Shown here: positions 52,922 through 57,551 of the stretch, in pieces
Layout: every line of letters begins with the position of its first letter
Numbering within the stretch: the first letter of the stretch is position 1
Source: a virus
Lineage: Duplodnaviria; Caudoviricetes
Strand: one strand, 5' to 3'
Virus record (IMG/VR): IMGVR_UViG_3300020198_000019
Coordinates: 1 to 57,551 of that record
Length of the DNA: 57,551 nt
Made by a program: the position numbers and the translations under genes
Notes under the pieces: generated by a model
The model's database searches: none
What the model was told of the DNA's origin: nothing
Seen by the model: only the letters and a program-made list of their open reading frames with translations

Positions 52922-53006
52922 GATCAACTCCCATAGTGGGCCAGAAAAAGAAAACCCCGACGACACGGTGTCGCCGGGGAGTACTGCAATCGACCTGCTT
53001 TCTGCG

Positions 53007-53183
53007 TTATGGGGCGATCTCTTCTCGCACCACGGAAACCGTATCACGCGGGCTGTCAAACGCCAGACTGCATGACCCTGTCGCAGTGCTGTTGATTTTT
53101 ATGGTGATCACAACCGGGTCGGACCCGGGAGGCGTCACCGTAATGACAACACGCTGGCCTCTTCGACGTTTCAATACCAACAT
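53007..53183 (-). CDS. csrA: CsrA/RsmA-family RNA-binding protein
   Basis: MLVLKRRRGQRVVI...ITIKI...LAFDSPRDTVSVVREEI matches the CsrA pattern; AAGGAG RBS. Confidence 0.8.
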   Translation of the reverse strand: MLVLKRRRGQRVVITVTPPGSDPVVITIKINSTATGSCSLAFDSPRDTVSVVREEIAP

Positions 53184-53262
53184 TCGAAACTCCTTAATGG
53201 AAAAGCGTGCCGGCAAACACGCCGGCACATCTGGAAAACTCTACAACATCTGTGGAATCGTG

Positions 53263-53610
53263 TCAACGGGAAAACCGGATCAGCCGGCAATGCCGCAGTT
53301 TGATCACGCCCGCTTCATCGACCCGGGCGTGAGCGGTATTCGTGTCATCGAGGGACACCCAGTTACCGGGCGTCGGATCTCCGGGCTGCGGTGATGCGAA
53401 CCACCGCACATCGATCGCAAGGTACACGGTAGTCTTACGTGCTCGGGCATTATACGGGGCCTGACTACGCCACAATTTCGTGGCTTCCACGATATTGGGG
53501 CCACTGCCCCAACTACAATCCCCGACCACCAGAAACCACACCCATCCTGACGGGGCGTCCGTCACGTCCAACAACACGCTGTGATTACGAAACAGAACTT
53601 CACTCGCCAT
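53263..53610 (-). CDS. Array gene, hypothetical (MASEVLF...)
   Basis: ATG after B-element RBS. Confidence 0.68.
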   Translation of the reverse strand: MASEVLFRNHSVLLDVTDAPSGWVWFLVVGDCSWGSGPNIVEATKLWRSQAPYNARARKTTVYLAIDVRWFASPQPGDPTPGNWVSLDDTNTAHARVDEAGVIKLRHCRLIRFSR

Positions 53611-53674
53611 CACTCTCTCCCATAATGGGACCAAAGAAAAGCCCGGCGACACGGTGCCGCCGGGCATGTAACAC

Positions 53675-54259
53675 TCAGCGGGTTTCGACAAAGGCCCTGA
53701 TATTATCCCACTTTTCTTCCGCAACACGATGAGCTGCATCCCTTGCAGCAAGCGCGTCGTTGAACTCAACTACTAAGCGGTTCACTGCGCTCGTCAGTAA
53801 CGTAGTATCCGCATCGCCAGCGACTTCGGTGAGCGGGTAGGGTGGCCTCACTGGGCCGTCAACGACAGTGATCTTGCCGTCCGTGTCAAACGAACACAGG
53901 CGTACAACGATCTCGTTGTACTCACACATGTGCGTTTCCTTGCCGTTGGTGACGAAGGCGCACCCCTTAACCAGCAGGTAGATGCTGTGCTTGCTTTGCT
54001 GCGTCGTCAAGTACCCCAAGGCCAGGTACCGCTCGGGGTACGCACGTCGGTGTGTTTCTGCCTCCCACACAGCCGGGGCTACAGCGTTACGAAACGCTGT
54101 GGTCAACGTAAGGTCAGTCTTCACAGCTTTCTTGCCAACGTACGCTGTAATGGCGGACCGCAGTAACGGCAGCAACAACAAGGCAAACCGCAGCGCCCTG
54201 CAGTGAGCCTCGAGGCGGGCCTGATACTGCGGCGTCATAGTGACTGGGTACTCTCGCAT
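53675..54259 (-). CDS. Array gene, hypothetical (MREYPV...)
   Basis: Bounded by B elements. Confidence 0.72.
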   Translation of the reverse strand: MREYPVTMTPQYQARLEAHCRALRFALLLLPLLRSAITAYVGKKAVKTDLTLTTAFRNAVAPAVWEAETHRRAYPERYLALGYLTTQQSKHSIYLLVKGCAFVTNGKETHMCEYNEIVVRLCSFDTDGKITVVDGPVRPPYPLTEVAGDADTTLLTSAVNRLVVEFNDALAARDAAHRVAEEKWDNIRAFVETR

Positions 54260-54344
54260 AACACACTCCAAACAAAAACCAACAGGAAAAACCCCGACGA
54301 CACGGTGTCGCCGGGAAGGTACTGCTCAGGACCTGCTTTCTGCG

Positions 54345-54572
54345 TTAAGACCCCCGCTTGCAGTAGTTACACGCAGCGTTCAAGGCCTTTAGAAAAGCAC
54401 TATTCGACTCGATGACGTTTCGAACTTGAGATTGCCGGCTGTTCGTATCCGAGTAACACTCGGGCTCGGCAAGCGTTTCGAGTTCCTCCACCAACAACCG
54501 GGCTACGGCGAGCGCGTCCTCAATCAGGGGCTCGGCGTCGCTTTCATCAAACTTTCTCATCTTATGCGTCAT
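54345..54572 (-). CDS. Array gene, helical hypothetical
   Basis: Bounded by B elements. Confidence 0.7.
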   Translation of the reverse strand: MTHKMRKFDESDAEPLIEDALAVARLLVEELETLAEPECYSDTNSRQSQVRNVIESNSAFLKALNAACNYCKRGS

Positions 54573-54644
54573 GGTAACACTCCCGTAATGGGCCGCAAAA
54601 GGCCCGGCGACACGGTGCCGCCGGGCATAGAAAACACTAAAGCC

Positions 54645-55283
54645 TCACGGCTTGTGCTCAAGCTCAGACATTGCATCCCGAAAAGCCTTGATAACTTGGT
54701 ACTCGTAAGCAGACTCGGGATCAATCGCCCACGTATCGTCCTGATCCAACTGTTCCCGGGCAGAGGTCACCATGTCTTGAATCAAATACTCCACGTCGGA
54801 ATCGTAATAGCCGCCGCAACTGTCAAGTTGGGTTTCGTCGTCGTCGTCGCCAACCCCGGACCACGAAAGCCCGTGGCCGTTACACCAGTCCGTGTAGCAC
54901 TGGAGGAACCGATCAGCGTCCTTTGCCCGATCCTCGTACGTCTTAGCCCCGATGGCGGAAGGCCCATGTTCCCAGAGCAATACGCCTGCGTGTCCGACGC
55001 CGTCGAAACGGCAGTCAGTACCTGGGCCACCGTGCCCCTTACGAAACCACACACACTCCCCGTGCTCGTAATAGCTGAGCATGAACGCCAGCCCGACATC
55101 GAGTCGGCGGCGAAGGCTGATGTCCCGAGCGGTGAACACGAGCGATCCGTGTTTACGGGTGACACGAAACAACTTGTCGGGGTGCTGAAACCCGACGTGT
55201 TTGCGGCTAAACGACACGAGTTTCCAGTTCATGTCGTTTTCGGCTGGATCTGGACAGCAATCAGGCTCGATCTTAAACGTCAT
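54645..55283 (-). CDS. Array gene, conserved-looking acidic phage protein (YEHG...YTDWCNG...DSCGGYY)
   Basis: Bounded by B elements. Confidence 0.78.
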   Translation of the reverse strand: MTFKIEPDCCPDPAENDMNWKLVSFSRKHVGFQHPDKLFRVTRKHGSLVFTARDISLRRRLDVGLAFMLSYYEHGECVWFRKGHGGPGTDCRFDGVGHAGVLLWEHGPSAIGAKTYEDRAKDADRFLQCYTDWCNGHGLSWSGVGDDDDETQLDSCGGYYDSDVEYLIQDMVTSAREQLDQDDTWAIDPESAYEYQVIKAFRDAMSELEHKP

Positions 55284-55415
55284 AACACTCCCGTAATGGG
55301 AACAACAAAGAAAAACCCGGCGACACCACGTCGCCGGGAACCTACTGCTCTGGACCTGCTTTCTGCGTTAGCCGATAAAACGTTTCGCTGCTCACAAAAA
55401 CGGTGTTGGCATCAG

Positions 55416-55760
55416 CTATCCTACAACCTTGGATAATTTCATTGGCTTGTTCATCCAAGGTTGTGGCTGGATATGAATGAACCAATCTTGAATTGAAGGA
55501 ATAAAGCCCATGTCTTCGGTAACGTGTTGTTCACCTATCCATCGAGTAGGAATAACCCTGCCCGTTGATAGCGTGATTGTATTGCCGAACACGCGTTCAC
55601 ACTCAAAGATACCTTGAGCATGATGTCGTAAAGCACGATGCCGAAAATCAGCAAACATTTCCTTGCTGGCATCAAACCATTCGTGAATTTTTTGATAATC
55701 CTCTGGGTTTCCGCCCCATTTTTGGGTTGAGGAAAGGGAATGATGATATGGATTAGCCAT
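55416..55760 (-). CDS. DUF6915-like protein
   Basis: MANPYHHSLSS..KWGG...IHEWFD.SK...DFRHRALRHH..GIF..E..FG...EQHV.ED.G.IPS; GGAGG RBS; AT-richer than neighbours. Confidence 0.8.
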   Translation of the reverse strand: MANPYHHSLSSTQKWGGNPEDYQKIHEWFDASKEMFADFRHRALRHHAQGIFECERVFGNTITLSTGRVIPTRWIGEQHVTEDMGFIPSIQDWFIHIQPQPWMNKPMKLSKVVG

Positions 55761-55771
55761 TGTGTCCTCCA

Positions 55772-55808
55772 TAAAAAAAGGTAGGTGTGAGGCCAATCCT
55801 CACACCTA
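55772..55808 (-). terminator. Perfect 11-bp hairpin plus U7, directly before the RBS
   Basis: TAGGTGTGAGG-N5-CCTCACACCTA at 55782-55808, then CCTTTTTTTATGGAGG on the minus strand. Confidence 0.7.
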
Positions 55809-55819
55809 ACTCCAAAGAA

Positions 55820-55910
55820 TGCGAACAAAGCGGTCAACCGGAGCCGCCGTTCGCGCGGGTTTTGAAATCAAAGTCTTTCGGCGGCGGCCCGGTTACCGCC
55901 GTCGTTAGTA
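55820..55910 (+). other. attC: Integron attC recombination site (91 bp)
   Basis: R'' TGCGAAC, 5-nt spacer, L'' GGTCAACC, ..., L' GGTTACC, 6-nt spacer, R' GTTAGTA; unpaired C55835 and A55842 give the extrahelical G and T on the bottom strand; further 7-bp GCCGCCG/CGGCGGC stem. Confidence 0.85.
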
Positions 55911-56264
55911 TTAACAATTTTCCTCAAAATCTTCGTAATTTAAAACTTCCTCGCACCCTTTCATCGTGACAGTTTTCGTCGTGGTATCCCAAATAACCTC
56001 ACCCGTTACGCTGTATTCACCAGCGAACGTATAGTATTTGTCATAAACTGGTCGGCACAGCCCGCGAACAAGCGCGTTTTCGGGCGTTTGCTCTCTGCCC
56101 GAATCCTCTGGCCAATAATCTTCATGTAATTGGCAGATGACTGTGTCATCTTTCTGGATGACAATGTCATGGCATCCGCCTTCATCATTGCCACCACTGA
56201 AACGGATAACGCATTTGTTTCCGCCTTTGCTTTTGATGAAAGCAAACAGTTTTTCACGTGTCAT
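55911..56264 (-). CDS. DUF6878-like protein
   Basis: VIRFSGGNDEGG motif; next to the DUF6915-like gene; AT-richer; GGAG RBS. Confidence 0.7.
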   Translation of the reverse strand: MTREKLFAFIKSKGGNKCVIRFSGGNDEGGCHDIVIQKDDTVICQLHEDYWPEDSGREQTPENALVRGLCRPVYDKYYTFAGEYSVTGEVIWDTTTKTVTMKGCEEVLNYEDFEENC

Positions 56265-56354
56265 AGCTTTTCTCCATTTCGTCCTTAACGTAAAAACAAA
56301 AACCCGGCGACACCACGTCGCCGGGAACCTACTGCTCTGGACCTGCTTTCTGCG

Positions 56355-56951
56355 TTAGCGTACCTCGGAACGCACGTTGATGAGACCCTCCCGCATTTCC
56401 TCGCTGGTGATCTCGAACTGTTTATCTGTAGACCGCACGTACCACGTCCACGTAATATCCTCGCGGTCACCCTCGCACTCCTCGATCCAGAAATGCATCC
56501 GCTTGATTATCGCTCGCGTTACCCGCCACGATTCGATTGACGGGTAGCTCCCCTTAACCACGACTCGGTGCCAGCCCCAGTGCTGCATCGCATACAGCCT
56601 AACGTCCTCCGTGTTAGGCTCAGACTGCAGGGCGAACTGGGCCACCAGTTCCGGTAGCCCCGTCCAAAGCGCGAGTAGATCATCGCATGATAGATCTTGA
56701 CTTGGGTTTACGTCGGCCAGCCTGCACCGTAATTCGATGCAGTCTAAGCCGTACTCGTTAGACGCGATCAAGTCGAACACCGATAAAAATTCATCGTAAA
56801 CGGGGTCGTCGGGGTTTGCGGCACTAAGCGCTGCGTAAACAAGCCCGAAAGCGTGTTGGCGAGCCACCATCTCGTGGTTCGCCACGTCAACCCCTGCGTC
56901 ACCGTCACAGTACGTAACGTGACCGTGATTATCGATCCAGTACTCAGACAT
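56355..56951 (-). CDS. Array gene, hypothetical (EYWID...CDGDAG...NHE)
   Basis: GGAGG RBS; stop codon lies inside the B element. Confidence 0.75.
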   Translation of the reverse strand: MSEYWIDNHGHVTYCDGDAGVDVANHEMVARQHAFGLVYAALSAANPDDPVYDEFLSVFDLIASNEYGLDCIELRCRLADVNPSQDLSCDDLLALWTGLPELVAQFALQSEPNTEDVRLYAMQHWGWHRVVVKGSYPSIESWRVTRAIIKRMHFWIEECEGDREDITWTWYVRSTDKQFEITSEEMREGLINVRSEVR

Positions 56952-56974
56952 GACTTACCTCCGTAATGGAAACA

Positions 56975-57012
56975 AGAAAGGAACACGAACGATGGCCGCC
57001 GCAGCGGCCATC
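56975..57012 (-). terminator. 9-bp hairpin plus U-rich tract before the RBS
   Basis: GATGGCCGC-TGCG-GCGGCCATC at 56991-57012. Confidence 0.5.
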
Positions 57013-57015
57013 TAT

Positions 57016-57350
57016 CCTGCACCCGTCTAAGGCCTGTGTCACAACTCGTCGGTATCTTCGATCTCGTCCTCATCCGATTCAAAAGGTTCAAGCTCAATAC
57101 CTAGCAGTTTAGCCAGCTCTTCGCAATCATCTGCCATTGGTTCAAAGCTTTCGCGACCTTCGTCGGTTGAGCAATCCCAAACTTGTGCGAGACCCTCTAA
57201 ACACGAATTACGCAATCGTGTTAGGATGTCTTTCATTTTTTCTTTTTCTTCCGCGGTTGCCATTGCTAACACCTTAATCGTAAAGTTTTGCTTGTTTCAA
57301 AAGCCCAACAATAGTTTCTTCTGGAACGTCCCTGCACCCGTCTAAGGCCT
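57016..57350. repeat. 20-bp direct repeat CCTGCACCCGTCTAAGGCCT (family C)
   Basis: Identical at 57016-57035 and 57331-57350. Confidence 0.9.
57039..57263 (-). CDS. Array gene, acidic hypothetical (MATAEEK...)
   Basis: Lies between the family C repeats; AT-rich; AAGGTG RBS. Confidence 0.68.
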   Translation of the reverse strand: MATAEEKEKMKDILTRLRNSCLEGLAQVWDCSTDEGRESFEPMADDCEELAKLLGIELEPFESDEDEIEDTDEL

Positions 57351-57424
57351 ACCCTACAGCTCGATCCGGATCACACTCCGCAGCTTGTTGTAACGCAGGC
57401 GGATTGATCCGATTAAGTTCCCGT

Positions 57425-57550
57425 TCAAGACTTTTCCTCCGGAATGTCGTATGTGTCGCAAATTCCAAAAGCTTCTGAGGCTTCATTTGGTTCTTCAACC
57501 AAAAATGCTATGCGTTTTAGTACCGCAGCAAGAACCATTTGACGACCTTG
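57425..57550 (-). CDS. 3' end of a gene truncated by the window edge
   Basis: Open frame from the edge to a TGA at 57425. Confidence 0.35.
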   Translation of the reverse strand, partial: QGRQMVLAAVLKRIAFLVEEPNEASEAFGICDTYDIPEEKS

Positions 57551-57551
57551 C

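What the first reader, a model, noticed from the sequence alone, without database searches (positions are those of the whole stretch)
55820..55910. A structurally canonical integron attC site inside a phage genome
Seen: exact attC geometry (R''7, spacer 5, L''8 with extra C, L'7, spacer 6, R'7) plus a second extrahelical base, giving the G and T bulges on the bottom strand that IntI recognises. R' abuts the stop codon at 55911. The site points opposite to both flanking genes, and no intI is in the window. From memory, the arms (GCGGT.AACCGGAG...TTTTGAAAT...CCCGGTTACCGC..CGTT) resemble planctomycete attC sites. Inference, three alternatives: (a) a relic of captured host cassette DNA; (b) the phage uses host IntI to acquire cassettes or to integrate as a giant cassette, by analogy with elements that hijack XerCD; (c) a snapshot of phage genes being converted into cassettes.
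Basis: partly seen in the sequence, partly recalled or inferred. Interest (0 to 1): 0.85.

Follow-up and report, generated by a model that had tools for sequence, protein, structure and literature searches.

The report
Genuine integron attC inside lake phage
A lake-water phage carries one intact copy of the folded DNA site that planctomycete bacteria use to shuffle gene cassettes, which shows the phage has exchanged DNA with a host integron, but I found no sign that the phage itself uses the site.

Summary
Window 55820-55910 (+) is a full-length member of the attC family of Planctomycetota chromosomal integrons.

- A covariance model built only from 43 sites in arrays beside integron-integrase genes scores it 83.8 bits (E 8e-21). 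The reverse strand scores 18.5, and nothing else in the 57.5-kb phage exceeds 12 bits.
- Host arrays behave as true cassettes. The R'' of a site complements the R' of the preceding site at 8 or more of 9 bases in 59 of 86 pairs.

In the phage the site is solitary. There is no intI and no tyrosine recombinase. It lies antisense between two AT-rich phage-type genes. Host similarity is confined to 55812-55908. Two distant relatives of the phage lack it. It is stable in lake metagenome contigs, and no excision joint was seen. No convincing cassette 5' boundary was found.

Best reading: a host-derived single attC (SALIN-type) that is probably still recombination-competent but is not shown to be used.

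Phage-borne attC sites are already published (Qi et al. 2023), so this is a new member of a known kind.

Three other viral contigs carry arrays of this family, and two of them share exactly one cassette.

Earlier scan notes describe other integron-like phage systems, not this family.

The parts
55820..55910 (+). Complete attC site. The top strand is the + strand. It is a single copy in the phage.
   Evidence: CM R1 gives 83.8 bits, E 7.8e-21, over model positions 1-101 at 55815-55915 on +. The reverse strand gives 18.5 bits and the next best hit in the window 12 bits. The nhmmer family profile gives 95 bits.
55820..55826 (+). R'' box (TGCGAAC). The AAC is invariant in the family.
   Evidence: columns 10-12 are AAC in 42 of 43 integrase-adjacent sites.
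55830..55850 (+). Left arm of the long helix (L'' and the stem of the variable terminal structure). C55835 and A55842 are unpaired; they are G and T on the bottom strand.
   Evidence: Folds of both strands. In the family the first bulge is G in 50, C in 13, A in 2 and T in 1 of 66 copies. The second bulge is A in 66 of 66.
55851..55880 (+). Loop of the variable terminal structure. Its sequence is semi-conserved across host copies.
   Evidence: (list of sequences in register).
55881..55899 (+). Right arm of the long helix (includes L' at 55891-55897).
   Evidence: In the family this helix is paired in 94.3% of cells, and 14 of 18 pairs show compensatory changes.
55904..55910 (+). R' box (GTTAGTA). 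By analogy with the family, the expected crossover lies between G55904 and T55905.
   Evidence: Host similarity ends at 55907-55908. Foreign attC contigs in the lake runs stop matching at 55906. In related arrays, cassette identity ends at CGTTA.
55911..56264 (-). 117-aa ORF whose TAA stop abuts R'. It has 44.6% GC and a weak DUF6878 similarity below the Pfam cut-off.
   Evidence: There is only one distant relative in IMG/VR, at 33% identity.
55416..55760 (-). DUF6915 gene (114 aa, 42.9% GC) on the R'' side of the attC and antisense to it.
   Evidence: Pfam E 1.6e-48 and phrog_8143 E 2e-45. GC.
55782..55808 (-). Canonical intrinsic-terminator-like hairpin (11 pairs, then a T7 run) and an RBS before DUF6915. 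It lies between the attC and that gene.
55405..55413 (+). Best nearby candidate for a cassette 5' boundary (GTTGGCATC), 11 nt beyond the DUF6915 stop. Not significant.
   Evidence: It is 7 of 9 complementary to the 9-mer ending R''. In the window, 32 of 995 GTT sites score 7 or more. Host cassettes reach 8 or more of 9 in 59 of 86 pairs.
55307..55372 (+). Family-B phage repeat ending GCGTTAGC. It is the left bracket of the AT-rich block and a second candidate secondary site (GTT at 55367, 5 of 9).
56294..56359 (+). Family-B phage repeat, the right bracket of the AT-rich block.

Best explanation
Window 55820-55910 is a genuine, structurally intact attC recombination site of the family used by the chromosomal integrons of Planctomycetota. 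It is present as one isolated copy, with no integron integrase, no attI and no second attC. That makes it a single attC of the SALIN type. It sits in the accessory early-gene array of a lake-water phage.

Shown:
- family membership;
- orientation;
- solitary state;
- absence from two distant relatives of the phage;
- stability in the phage population.

Inferred:
- It entered the phage line by recombination with a host (or another phage's) cassette array. The event was most likely catalysed by IntI on the R' side, because host similarity stops at the GTTA core that abuts the stop codon of the 117-aa gene.
- Whatever came with it on the R'' side was then lost or replaced, because no cassette 5' end is recognisable.
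- In a cell that makes a cognate IntI, the bottom strand (the phage minus strand) would fold when single-stranded. It would present the R and L boxes with the G and T bulges and be cut between the bases opposite G55904 and T55905.
- The site could therefore still accept a cassette circle or fuse the phage to an array.

I found no trace that this has happened in this phage, so I read it as a passenger. In the phage's own transcripts it is merely an extra hairpin between two genes.
For: Identity:
- The pattern search gave 95 genome stretches. 55 of the 66 host copies used for the profile carry Planctomycetota labels (titles).
- The whole 85-90 nt element is conserved.
- The window scores 95 bits on the nhmmer profile, a single hit.
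- Integron integrase (TIGR02249) scores above its cut-off in 3 of 5 host genomes examined.
- Beside those genes lie co-oriented arrays of 14, 15 and 8 sites that run away from intI.
- Covariation on 43 such sites is 0.498 against 0.164 in shuffles (0 of 500 reach it) and at most 0.171 in slid controls.
- The model built from them scores the window 83.8 bits, E 7.8e-21.
- It gives 0 hits in 402,957 bases of 71 unrelated viral loci at E up to 0.1, and none in the stretches L200-L205, the whole records of two related phages, at E up to 0.01.
- Host cassettes are real: R'' complements the preceding R' at 8 or more of 9 bases in 59 of 86 pairs. For the same site the figure is 17 of 183.

Solitary state:
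- No TIGR02249 match and no PF00589 match in the window.
- There is one CM hit only.

Host-derived, attC only:
- blastn similarity to host loci is limited to 55812-55908.
- Flank GC is 43-45%; the 107 host cassettes have a median of 53% and a minimum of 46.5%.

Lineage-specific and stable:
- Relatives G410 and G411 (65-74% nt identity, collinear) lack the attC, DUF6915 and the 117-aa gene.
- Contigs of 3 of the 4 laid lake runs bridge the site, including SNP variants, and no joint removes it.
- Two independent JGI contigs carry the block at 99.7-99.9% identity.
Against: - The generic IntegronFinder attC model could not be run, and no recombination was assayed.
- My profile and model trace back to a pattern taken from the window's own arms. 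'Family membership' therefore rests on the independent properties of the host sites (position beside intI, covariation, the cassette rule), not on the score alone.
- A passive relic would be expected to decay, yet the copy scores near the top of the family range. It has also kept a complete R'' box with almost no extra host DNA, which a random deletion would rarely produce.
- The left junction shows no GTT or GWT within the 60 nt left of R''. A simple IntI insertion of a minimal cassette is therefore not supported.
- The right junction does not fit the CRGM motif of the E. coli IntI1 attG hot spots (Loot et al. preprint, section read). That motif may not apply to another integrase.
- The host is inferred from the attC alone. 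TerL matched 1 of 401 Planctomycetota genomes, at 29% identity.
Confidence: 0.6

Rival explanations
1. The site is an active docking site. During infection of an IntI-positive planctomycete, the phage attC recombines with cassette circles or with attI/attC of the host integron. The phage thereby gains accessory genes next to the site, or enters and leaves the array as a very large cassette.
For: - The copy is intact and scores near the top of the family range.
- It lies in the hypervariable accessory array.
- Three other viral contigs carry co-oriented arrays of the same family, with 4 to 10 sites. Two of them (L074, L075) carry a large-terminase gene.
- In those arrays 14 of 16 neighbouring pairs obey the cassette rule at 8 or more of 9 bases.
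- L074 and L075 share exactly one cassette, from CG|TTA to CG|TTA, between different neighbours.
- None of these records encodes IntI or a PF00589 recombinase above cut-off. Any recombination would therefore need a host enzyme.
- Qi et al. 2023 (PMC9892861, section 3.4 read) showed that 5 of 6 phage attC sites recombine with attI1 in the presence of IntI1.
Against: - Nothing is inserted at G55904|TT: R' abuts the stop codon.
- There is no second attC in the phage.
- No joint was seen at the site in 4 laid runs. These were contigs only, which drop rare variants.
- The phage has its own serine recombinase.
- The relatives do without the site.
Confidence: 0.15
2. The attC arrived together with DUF6915 as one inverted gene cassette. 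The cassette would be about 500 bp (55406-55904) or 536 bp (55369-55904). IntI would have inserted it at a GTT secondary site just after the stop codon of the 117-aa gene, possibly at the GCG|TTA end of a family-B repeat.
For: - GTTGGCATC at 55405 lies 11 nt beyond the DUF6915 stop and is 7 of 9 complementary to the R'' 9-mer.
- The mosaic breakpoint with contig L206 lies at 55400, 5 nt away.
- In viral arrays the two large cassette genes are likewise antisense to their attC. One is the tgt-like gene of L075, phrog_887, E 2e-72.
- Family-B long forms end in GCGTTA, which looks like a core site.
Against: - A score of 7 of 9 is reached by 32 of 995 GTT sites in the window, including the adjacent R' itself. 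Host cassettes mostly reach 8-9 of 9.
- DUF6915 at 42.9% GC lies below all 107 host cassettes.
- DUF6915 was found in 2 of 401 Planctomycetota genomes, with no attC beside either copy.
- None of 70 viral DUF6915 loci has an attC.
- The gene carries a hairpin, U-tract and RBS module of this phage's own layout.
- The shared block with L206 begins 5 nt before the GTT, not at it.
Confidence: 0.2
3. It is not a recombination site at all. It would be a chance or RNA-level hairpin, such as a terminator or processing signal for the early transcript, that only resembles an attC.
For: - On the minus-strand RNA the region folds strongly: -67 kcal/mol for 166 nt, z -5.4.
- The hairpin is followed by a U-rich stretch.
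- Almost every gene junction in this array carries a hairpin.
Against: - It is 88-93% identical over 80-97 nt to the best-matching host sites. Sites of the same family lie in arrays beside intI.
- It gives a full-length CM match.
- A canonical terminator already stands 20 nt downstream.
- The phage's own repeat families A and B are unrelated to it.
Confidence: 0.03
4. It is an assembly chimera: host integron reads were joined into a phage contig.
For: Host-type attC copies co-occur in the same lake metagenomes, and the assembly graphs break inside the conserved right arm.
Against: - A 985-nt contig of run X1 covers 55343-56327 with 0 differences.
- Contigs of X19 and X20 bridge the site in SNP variants.
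- Two JGI contigs carry the same junctions.
- Phage-type repeats and genes flank it on both sides.
Confidence: 0.01

Closest known systems
attC sites of sedentary chromosomal integrons of Planctomycetota (a taxon-specific attC covariance model exists: Ghaly et al. 2021, PMC8352920, passages read)
   Same: - The same sequence family and layout: R''-L''-loop-L'-R', invariant AAC/GTT, two bulged bases, and about 101 nt modelled.
- 83.8 bits on a model built from integrase-adjacent sites.
   Different: - It is solitary and sits in a phage, with no intI or attI on the record.
- It is antisense to both neighbouring genes. In host cassettes I counted 63 sense, 13 antisense and 31 unclear of 107.
- No matching cassette 5' end was found.
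- I could not run the published model, and its supplements were not seen.
SALIN, a single attC site lacking an integron-integrase (IntegronFinder 2.0; Loot et al. preprint 10.1101/2022.09.11.507474, sections read)
   Same: One attC with an adjacent CDS, with no other att site and no integrase nearby.
   Different: - SALINs were described in bacterial genomes and explained by insertion at attG sites (GWT plus CRGM).
- Here the replicon is a phage, the right junction lacks CRGM, and no left junction is visible.
Phage-borne integrons and CALINs (Qi et al. 2023, PMC9892861; abstract, methods 2.1 and section 3.4 read)
   Same: - Bacterial-type attC sites inside phage genomes that depend on a host integrase.
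- Their authors also note terminator-like and GTTRRRY-like motifs at the borders.
   Different: [quoted passage not shown] A single site in a metagenomic planctomycete phage would not have been counted.
- Their list of 21 phages is in supplements that I could not open.
IMEX elements that borrow XerCD (for example CTX phage).
   Same: A mobile element carries a site for a host tyrosine recombinase and no recombinase of that kind itself.
   Different: No integrated form at an integron was found, and the phage has its own serine recombinase.

Membership tests
attC (integron cassette recombination site) | Two pairs of imperfect inverted repeats (R''/R', L''/L') with conserved AAC and GTT at the outer boxes. 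| tested here: met
   -.
- R' fits GTTRRRY at 5 of 7 positions and R'' fits RYYYAAC at 4 of 7. The second consensus is recalled.
- The host family itself keeps only AAC/GTT invariant.
attC (integron cassette recombination site) | Extrahelical bases on the folded bottom strand and an unpaired spacer between the R and L boxes. | tested here: met
   - Predicted folds give bulges at 55835 and 55842, which are G and T on the bottom strand.
- The second bulge is invariant in the family and the first is variable.
- These are predictions, not structure probing.
attC (integron cassette recombination site) | Matches a covariance model of sites that lie in cassette arrays beside an integron-integrase gene. 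| tested here: met
   - R1 was built from 43 such sites.
- The window scores 83.8 bits, E 7.8e-21.
- Negative controls are.
attC (integron cassette recombination site) | Detected by the generic IntegronFinder / HattCI attC models. | not testable with these tools
   These models are not on hand. Rfam gave no match at gathering score over the window. I did not check whether Rfam holds an attC family.
attC (integron cassette recombination site) | Closes a cassette whose 5' end (TT plus about 6 nt) complements its own R''. | tested here: inconclusive
   - The rule holds in hosts: 59 of 86 pairs reach 8 or more of 9.
- In the window the best nearby candidate reaches 7 of 9 and is not significant.
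attC (integron cassette recombination site) | Recombined by IntI as folded single-stranded DNA. | not testable with these tools
   This needs a suicide-conjugation assay.
Complete integron | An intI gene with attI next to the cassette array. | tested here: not met
   No TIGR02249 match and no PF00589 match in the 57,551-bp record, which CheckV estimates as 88% complete.
CALIN | At least two attC sites without an integrase. | tested here: not met
   There is one site only, with CM filters off over the whole window.
SALIN | A single attC with an adjacent CDS and no other att site or integrase nearby. | tested here: met

The most novel reading that the evidence does not exclude
Phages of Planctomycetota take part in the host integron's cassette traffic, using host IntI in trans. 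They carry host-family attC sites, from a single site (this phage) to arrays of 4-10 cassettes (L072, L074, L075). Whole cassettes are exchanged between unrelated phage genomes exactly at G|TT. Cassette genes face the opposite way to the usual bacterial arrangement, so they are read with the phage's own transcription. On this reading, the solitary site here is a live entry point through which the accessory early-gene array can gain cassettes. It could also be the point at which neighbouring phage genes such as DUF6915 become mobilisable cassettes.
Probability: 0.15. Interest if true: 0.7.

Novelty: new member of a known kind. Interest (0 to 1): 0.5.

Why it matters
- It gives an unusually secure example of a host-type attC inside a phage. 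The evidence is homology to integrase-adjacent arrays, not only a generic structure score.
- Published surveys discard single sites as possible false positives, so such sites are undercounted.
- The site ties an uncultured lake phage to Planctomycetota hosts.
- Together with the cassette-precise sharing between two other viral contigs, it suggests that integron cassettes move through phage genomes in this phylum. That bears on how cassettes spread and perhaps on how new cassettes arise.
- For this phage alone, the site is most likely a passenger.

Tried and rejected
- **Rfam at gathering score over the whole window:** 0 matches. I did not check whether Rfam holds an attC family.
- **Single-sequence blastn-short and nhmmer with the intergenic region against 71 viral loci that hold DUF6915 or the 117-aa homologue:** nothing. 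The same loci with the CM: 0 hits.
- **tblastn of five flanking proteins against the 99 pattern loci:** only one marginal hit, E 0.008.
- **DUF6915 in Planctomycetota:** 2 of 401 genomes, with no attC beside either copy.
- **TerL in Planctomycetota:** 1 of 401 genomes, at 29% identity. This gives no host link by prophage.
- **Pfam and PHROGs on ten ORFs of L072, L074 and L075:** terminases in L074 and L075, nothing diagnostic in L072.
- **Search for the cassette's own R' (expected GTTCGCATT):** no site at 8 or more of 9 near the attC.
- **The '987-bp circle between identical family-B repeats' idea:** contig L206 carries the block without the left repeat and diverges at 55400. I did not pursue it further.
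- **Sequencing runs:** no RNA holder was listed.
- **Laid runs:** these were contigs only, so rare variants would not be seen. The two joints listed (54628 to 55311, and 54628 to 56298) have only 27 letters on one side and lie in repeats, so I do not count them.
- **Protein homologues of DUF6915:** 2671 proteins at E up to 1e-20, the best at 88% identity.
- **Supplements** of Qi et al. 2023 and Ghaly et al. 2021 were not opened. They may list phages or models that bear on novelty.

Full report
**What is there.**

The window is a single IMG/VR virus record of 57,551 bp, classed linear, with CheckV completeness 88%.
- It has a large terminase (phrog_2, E 2.4e-16) and a serine recombinase with two Resolvase matches.
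- From about 47.8 kb to the right end it carries an array of small minus-strand genes, separated by repeated hairpin modules of families A and B.

The finding lies in that array. It sits between the TAA stop of a 117-aa ORF (55911-56264, minus) and a canonical terminator-like hairpin (55782-55808, minus). That hairpin precedes a DUF6915 gene (55416-55760, minus; Pfam E 1.6e-48).

- R'' is at 55820-55826.
- A long helix pairs 55830-55850 with 55881-55899, with unpaired C55835 and A55842.
- R' is at 55904-55910.
- The bulges are G and T on the bottom strand.

The folding energy alone is only mildly unusual (z about -2.5). The fold itself therefore proves little.

**Is it more than chance?**

Yes, by homology.
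- The left arm is unique in the window.
- A pattern made of the two L-box arms with a free gap found 4 viral stretches and 95 genome stretches.
- Of 100 sequences examined (window included), 69 passed a crude AAC/GTT flank filter. I dropped the window, L072 and one chance match (L165), leaving 66 host copies for a profile.
- 55 of those 66 are labelled Planctomycetota. The other 11 are MAGs with other labels (my count on the titles).
- The 31 sequences that failed the filter include 14 that the profile later scored at 55-96 bits, so the filter was conservative.
- In the 66 copies the whole element is conserved, not only the arms I forced. This includes the spacers, the invariant second bulge (A in 66 of 66) and much of the loop.
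- The profile finds one hit in the window, at 55820 on +, with 95 bits. It finds hits in 81 of the 95 genome loci.

**Is that family really attC?**

- TIGR02249 (integron integrase) scores above its curated cut-off in 3 of 5 host genomes examined.
- I fetched 20 kb beside those genes. The profile found 14, 15 and 8 co-oriented sites running away from intI in L179, L181 and L182. It found 7 beside a partial intI in L183 and 1 at a contig end in L180.
- On 43 of these sites (one with a long insertion was left out of 44) the named structure is paired in 89.1% of cells. The L/VTS helix is paired in 94.3%, with compensatory changes in 14 of 18 pairs.
- The covariation score is 0.498, against 0.164 in shuffles (0 of 500 reach it) and at most 0.171 when the partners are slid.
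- The arrays also obey the rule expected of cassettes that circularise at G|TT. The 9-mer ending R'' complements the R' of the preceding site at 8 or more of 9 bases in 59 of 86 neighbouring pairs. For the R' of the same site the figure is 17 of 183.

These properties do not depend on the window.

- Model R1, built from those 43 integrase-adjacent sites, was run over the whole window with filters off. It gives 55815-55915 on + at 83.8 bits, E 7.8e-21, full length.
- The same place on the minus strand gives 18.5 bits. Nothing else exceeds 12 bits.
- Controls: 0 hits at E up to 0.1 in 402,957 bases of 71 viral loci. There are none at E up to 0.01 in L200-L205, the records of two related phages.
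- Caveat: the sites were collected with a profile that descends from the window's own arms. The model is therefore family-specific, and the generic IntegronFinder model could not be run.

**Context in the phage.**

- There is no integron integrase and no PF00589 tyrosine recombinase in the window, and no second attC. The element is neither an integron nor a CALIN; it is a single attC of the SALIN type.
- Similarity to host loci is confined to 55812-55908 (88-93% identity for the best 30 matches) and stops at the GTTA core.
- Foreign attC contigs in the same lake metagenomes stop matching at 55823 and 55906.
- The neighbours do not look like host cassettes. DUF6915 has 42.9% GC and the 117-aa gene 44.6%. 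The phage has 57.2% overall. The 107 host cassettes have a median of 53.2% and a minimum of 46.5%.
- DUF6915 is a common phage gene, with 70 IMG/VR loci and phrog_8143, and none of those loci has an attC.
- DUF6915 was found in 2 of 401 Planctomycetota genomes, and no attC lies beside either copy.

**Relatives and population.**

- A pattern from the family-B repeat found two viral records, G410 (58.7 kb) and G411 (51.7 kb). They are collinear with the window at 65-74% nt identity.
- They have homologues of the 212-aa and 198-aa neighbours (50-55% aa identity). They lack the attC, DUF6915 and the 117-aa gene, and hold other small genes at that place.
- Twenty lake-water metagenome runs hold the stretch.
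- In the four runs laid, a 985-nt contig of X1 covers 55343-56327 without a difference. Contigs of X19 and X20 bridge the site in SNP variants. One variant changes 55879 to the base that is commonest in the host copies. No joint removes the site or a cassette. These are contigs, so rare variants would be missed.
- Two JGI contigs carry 55400-57551 and 55400-56302 at 99.9% and 99.7% identity.
- One of them, L206, diverges from the window left of 55400 into SbcCD-like genes. The block DUF6915-attC-117aa therefore travels as a unit between mosaic backgrounds.

**How did it get there?**

- The right junction, at the R' core and abutting the stop codon, is what IntI recombination with a GTT site would leave.
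- The left side is not. There is no GTT or GWT in the 60 nt left of R''.
- The expected own R' (GTTCGCATT) has no match at 8 or more of 9 nearby. The best candidates are GTTGGCATC at 55405 (7 of 9, 11 nt past the DUF6915 stop) and the adjacent R' itself (7 of 9). In the window, 32 of 995 GTT sites do as well.
- I therefore cannot show that DUF6915 is the site's cassette, and its GC and phage distribution argue against it.
- The most economical reading is an attC acquired by recombination with a cassette array and then left alone. Either it was trimmed to little more than the site, or it was inherited within an AT-rich block from another phage.

**What it would do.**

By analogy with the family (inference), the bottom strand is the minus strand. 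It would fold when single-stranded, bind IntI at the R and L boxes, and be cut opposite G55904|T55905. The site could then take up a cassette circle or fuse the phage to an array. No product of such events was seen here.

**Other phages.**

- With the CM, three other viral contigs show co-oriented arrays: L072 with 10 hits, L074 with 7, and L075 with 4. L073 is the same phage as L075.
- L074 and L075 carry terminase genes. None of these contigs has intI or a PF00589 match above cut-off.
- For the 19 hits I paired, 14 of 16 neighbouring pairs obey the cassette rule at 8 or more of 9 bases.
- L074 and L075 are otherwise unrelated. They share one 332-bp segment at 87.7% identity. It begins at the CG|TTA of the preceding site and ends at the CG|TTA of its own site.

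**Known or new.**

- Phage-borne integrons, CALINs and attC sites that recombine with attI1 are published (Qi et al. 2023, PMC9892861; abstract, section 2.1 and section 3.4 read). That survey required two or more sites.
- Taxon-specific attC models including Planctomycetes exist (Ghaly et al. 2021, PMC8352920; passages read).
- SALINs and attG insertion are described for bacteria (Loot et al. preprint; sections read).
- CALIN definitions and the discarding of single sites are in Cury et al. 2016 (PMC4889954; passages read).
- My two literature searches listed no paper on attC sites in planctomycete phages. Supplements were closed.
- The scan's own earlier notes describe integron-like arrays with Xer-type recombinases in other phages. 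Those are a different system, and I did not test them.

**Verdict.**

Identity as a planctomycete-family attC is very likely (about 0.95). The best reading is a solitary, host-derived, probably still competent site with no demonstrated role in the phage (0.6). It is a new member of a known kind, of moderate interest.

Noticed in passing
L075:6793-7124 and L074:2793-3124: Two otherwise unrelated viral contigs, both with terminase genes, share exactly one 332-bp cassette at 87.7% identity. It is bounded by CG|TTA on both sides and sits between different neighbouring attC sites.
   Followed up: yes
L072:6982-10388; L074:2123-3906; L075:5881-7438: Viral contigs carry co-oriented arrays of 4-10 planctomycete-family attC sites with cassettes of about 310-335 bp and two larger ones. 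The two large cassette genes are antisense to their attC. One is a tgt-like gene (phrog_887). Most host cassettes are sense (63 of 107).
   Followed up: partly
window 55373-56293: The block DUF6915-attC-117aa has 45.4% GC, against 57.2% for the phage and 55.6-56.8% for the neighbouring genes. It looks like a recent import from an AT-richer source, with the GC-rich attC (60%) in its middle.
   Followed up: partly
window 55400; L206:3302: There is a mosaic breakpoint 16 nt after the DUF6915 stop. A JGI contig is 99.9% identical to the window to the right of it, and to the left continues into unrelated genes, including an SbcCD-like nuclease pair.
   Followed up: partly
window 52946-56359; G410 and G411: The family-B hairpin module, with its long form ending GCGTTA, is conserved in two distant relatives of the phage, where it also separates small genes. 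The gene content between copies differs between the three phages.
   Followed up: partly
G005:C1 (L105, L181, L182): One complete planctomycete chromosome has two integron-integrase matches above cut-off, each with an array. It also has family attC sites about 300 kb from the nearer integrase, so both integrons and detached clusters occur.
   Followed up: partly
L081, L099, L104, L109, L114, L118, L124, L129, L140, L151, L157: Eleven of the 66 host copies lie in MAGs labelled as other phyla or unclassified. This may reflect binning error or cassette transfer.
   Followed up: no
window 55136-55152 and 55279: In three of the four laid lake runs the 212-aa gene shows a cluster of small deletions and a 9-nt insertion relative to the window. 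This looks like a strain-variable segment.
   Followed up: no
   Followed up: no
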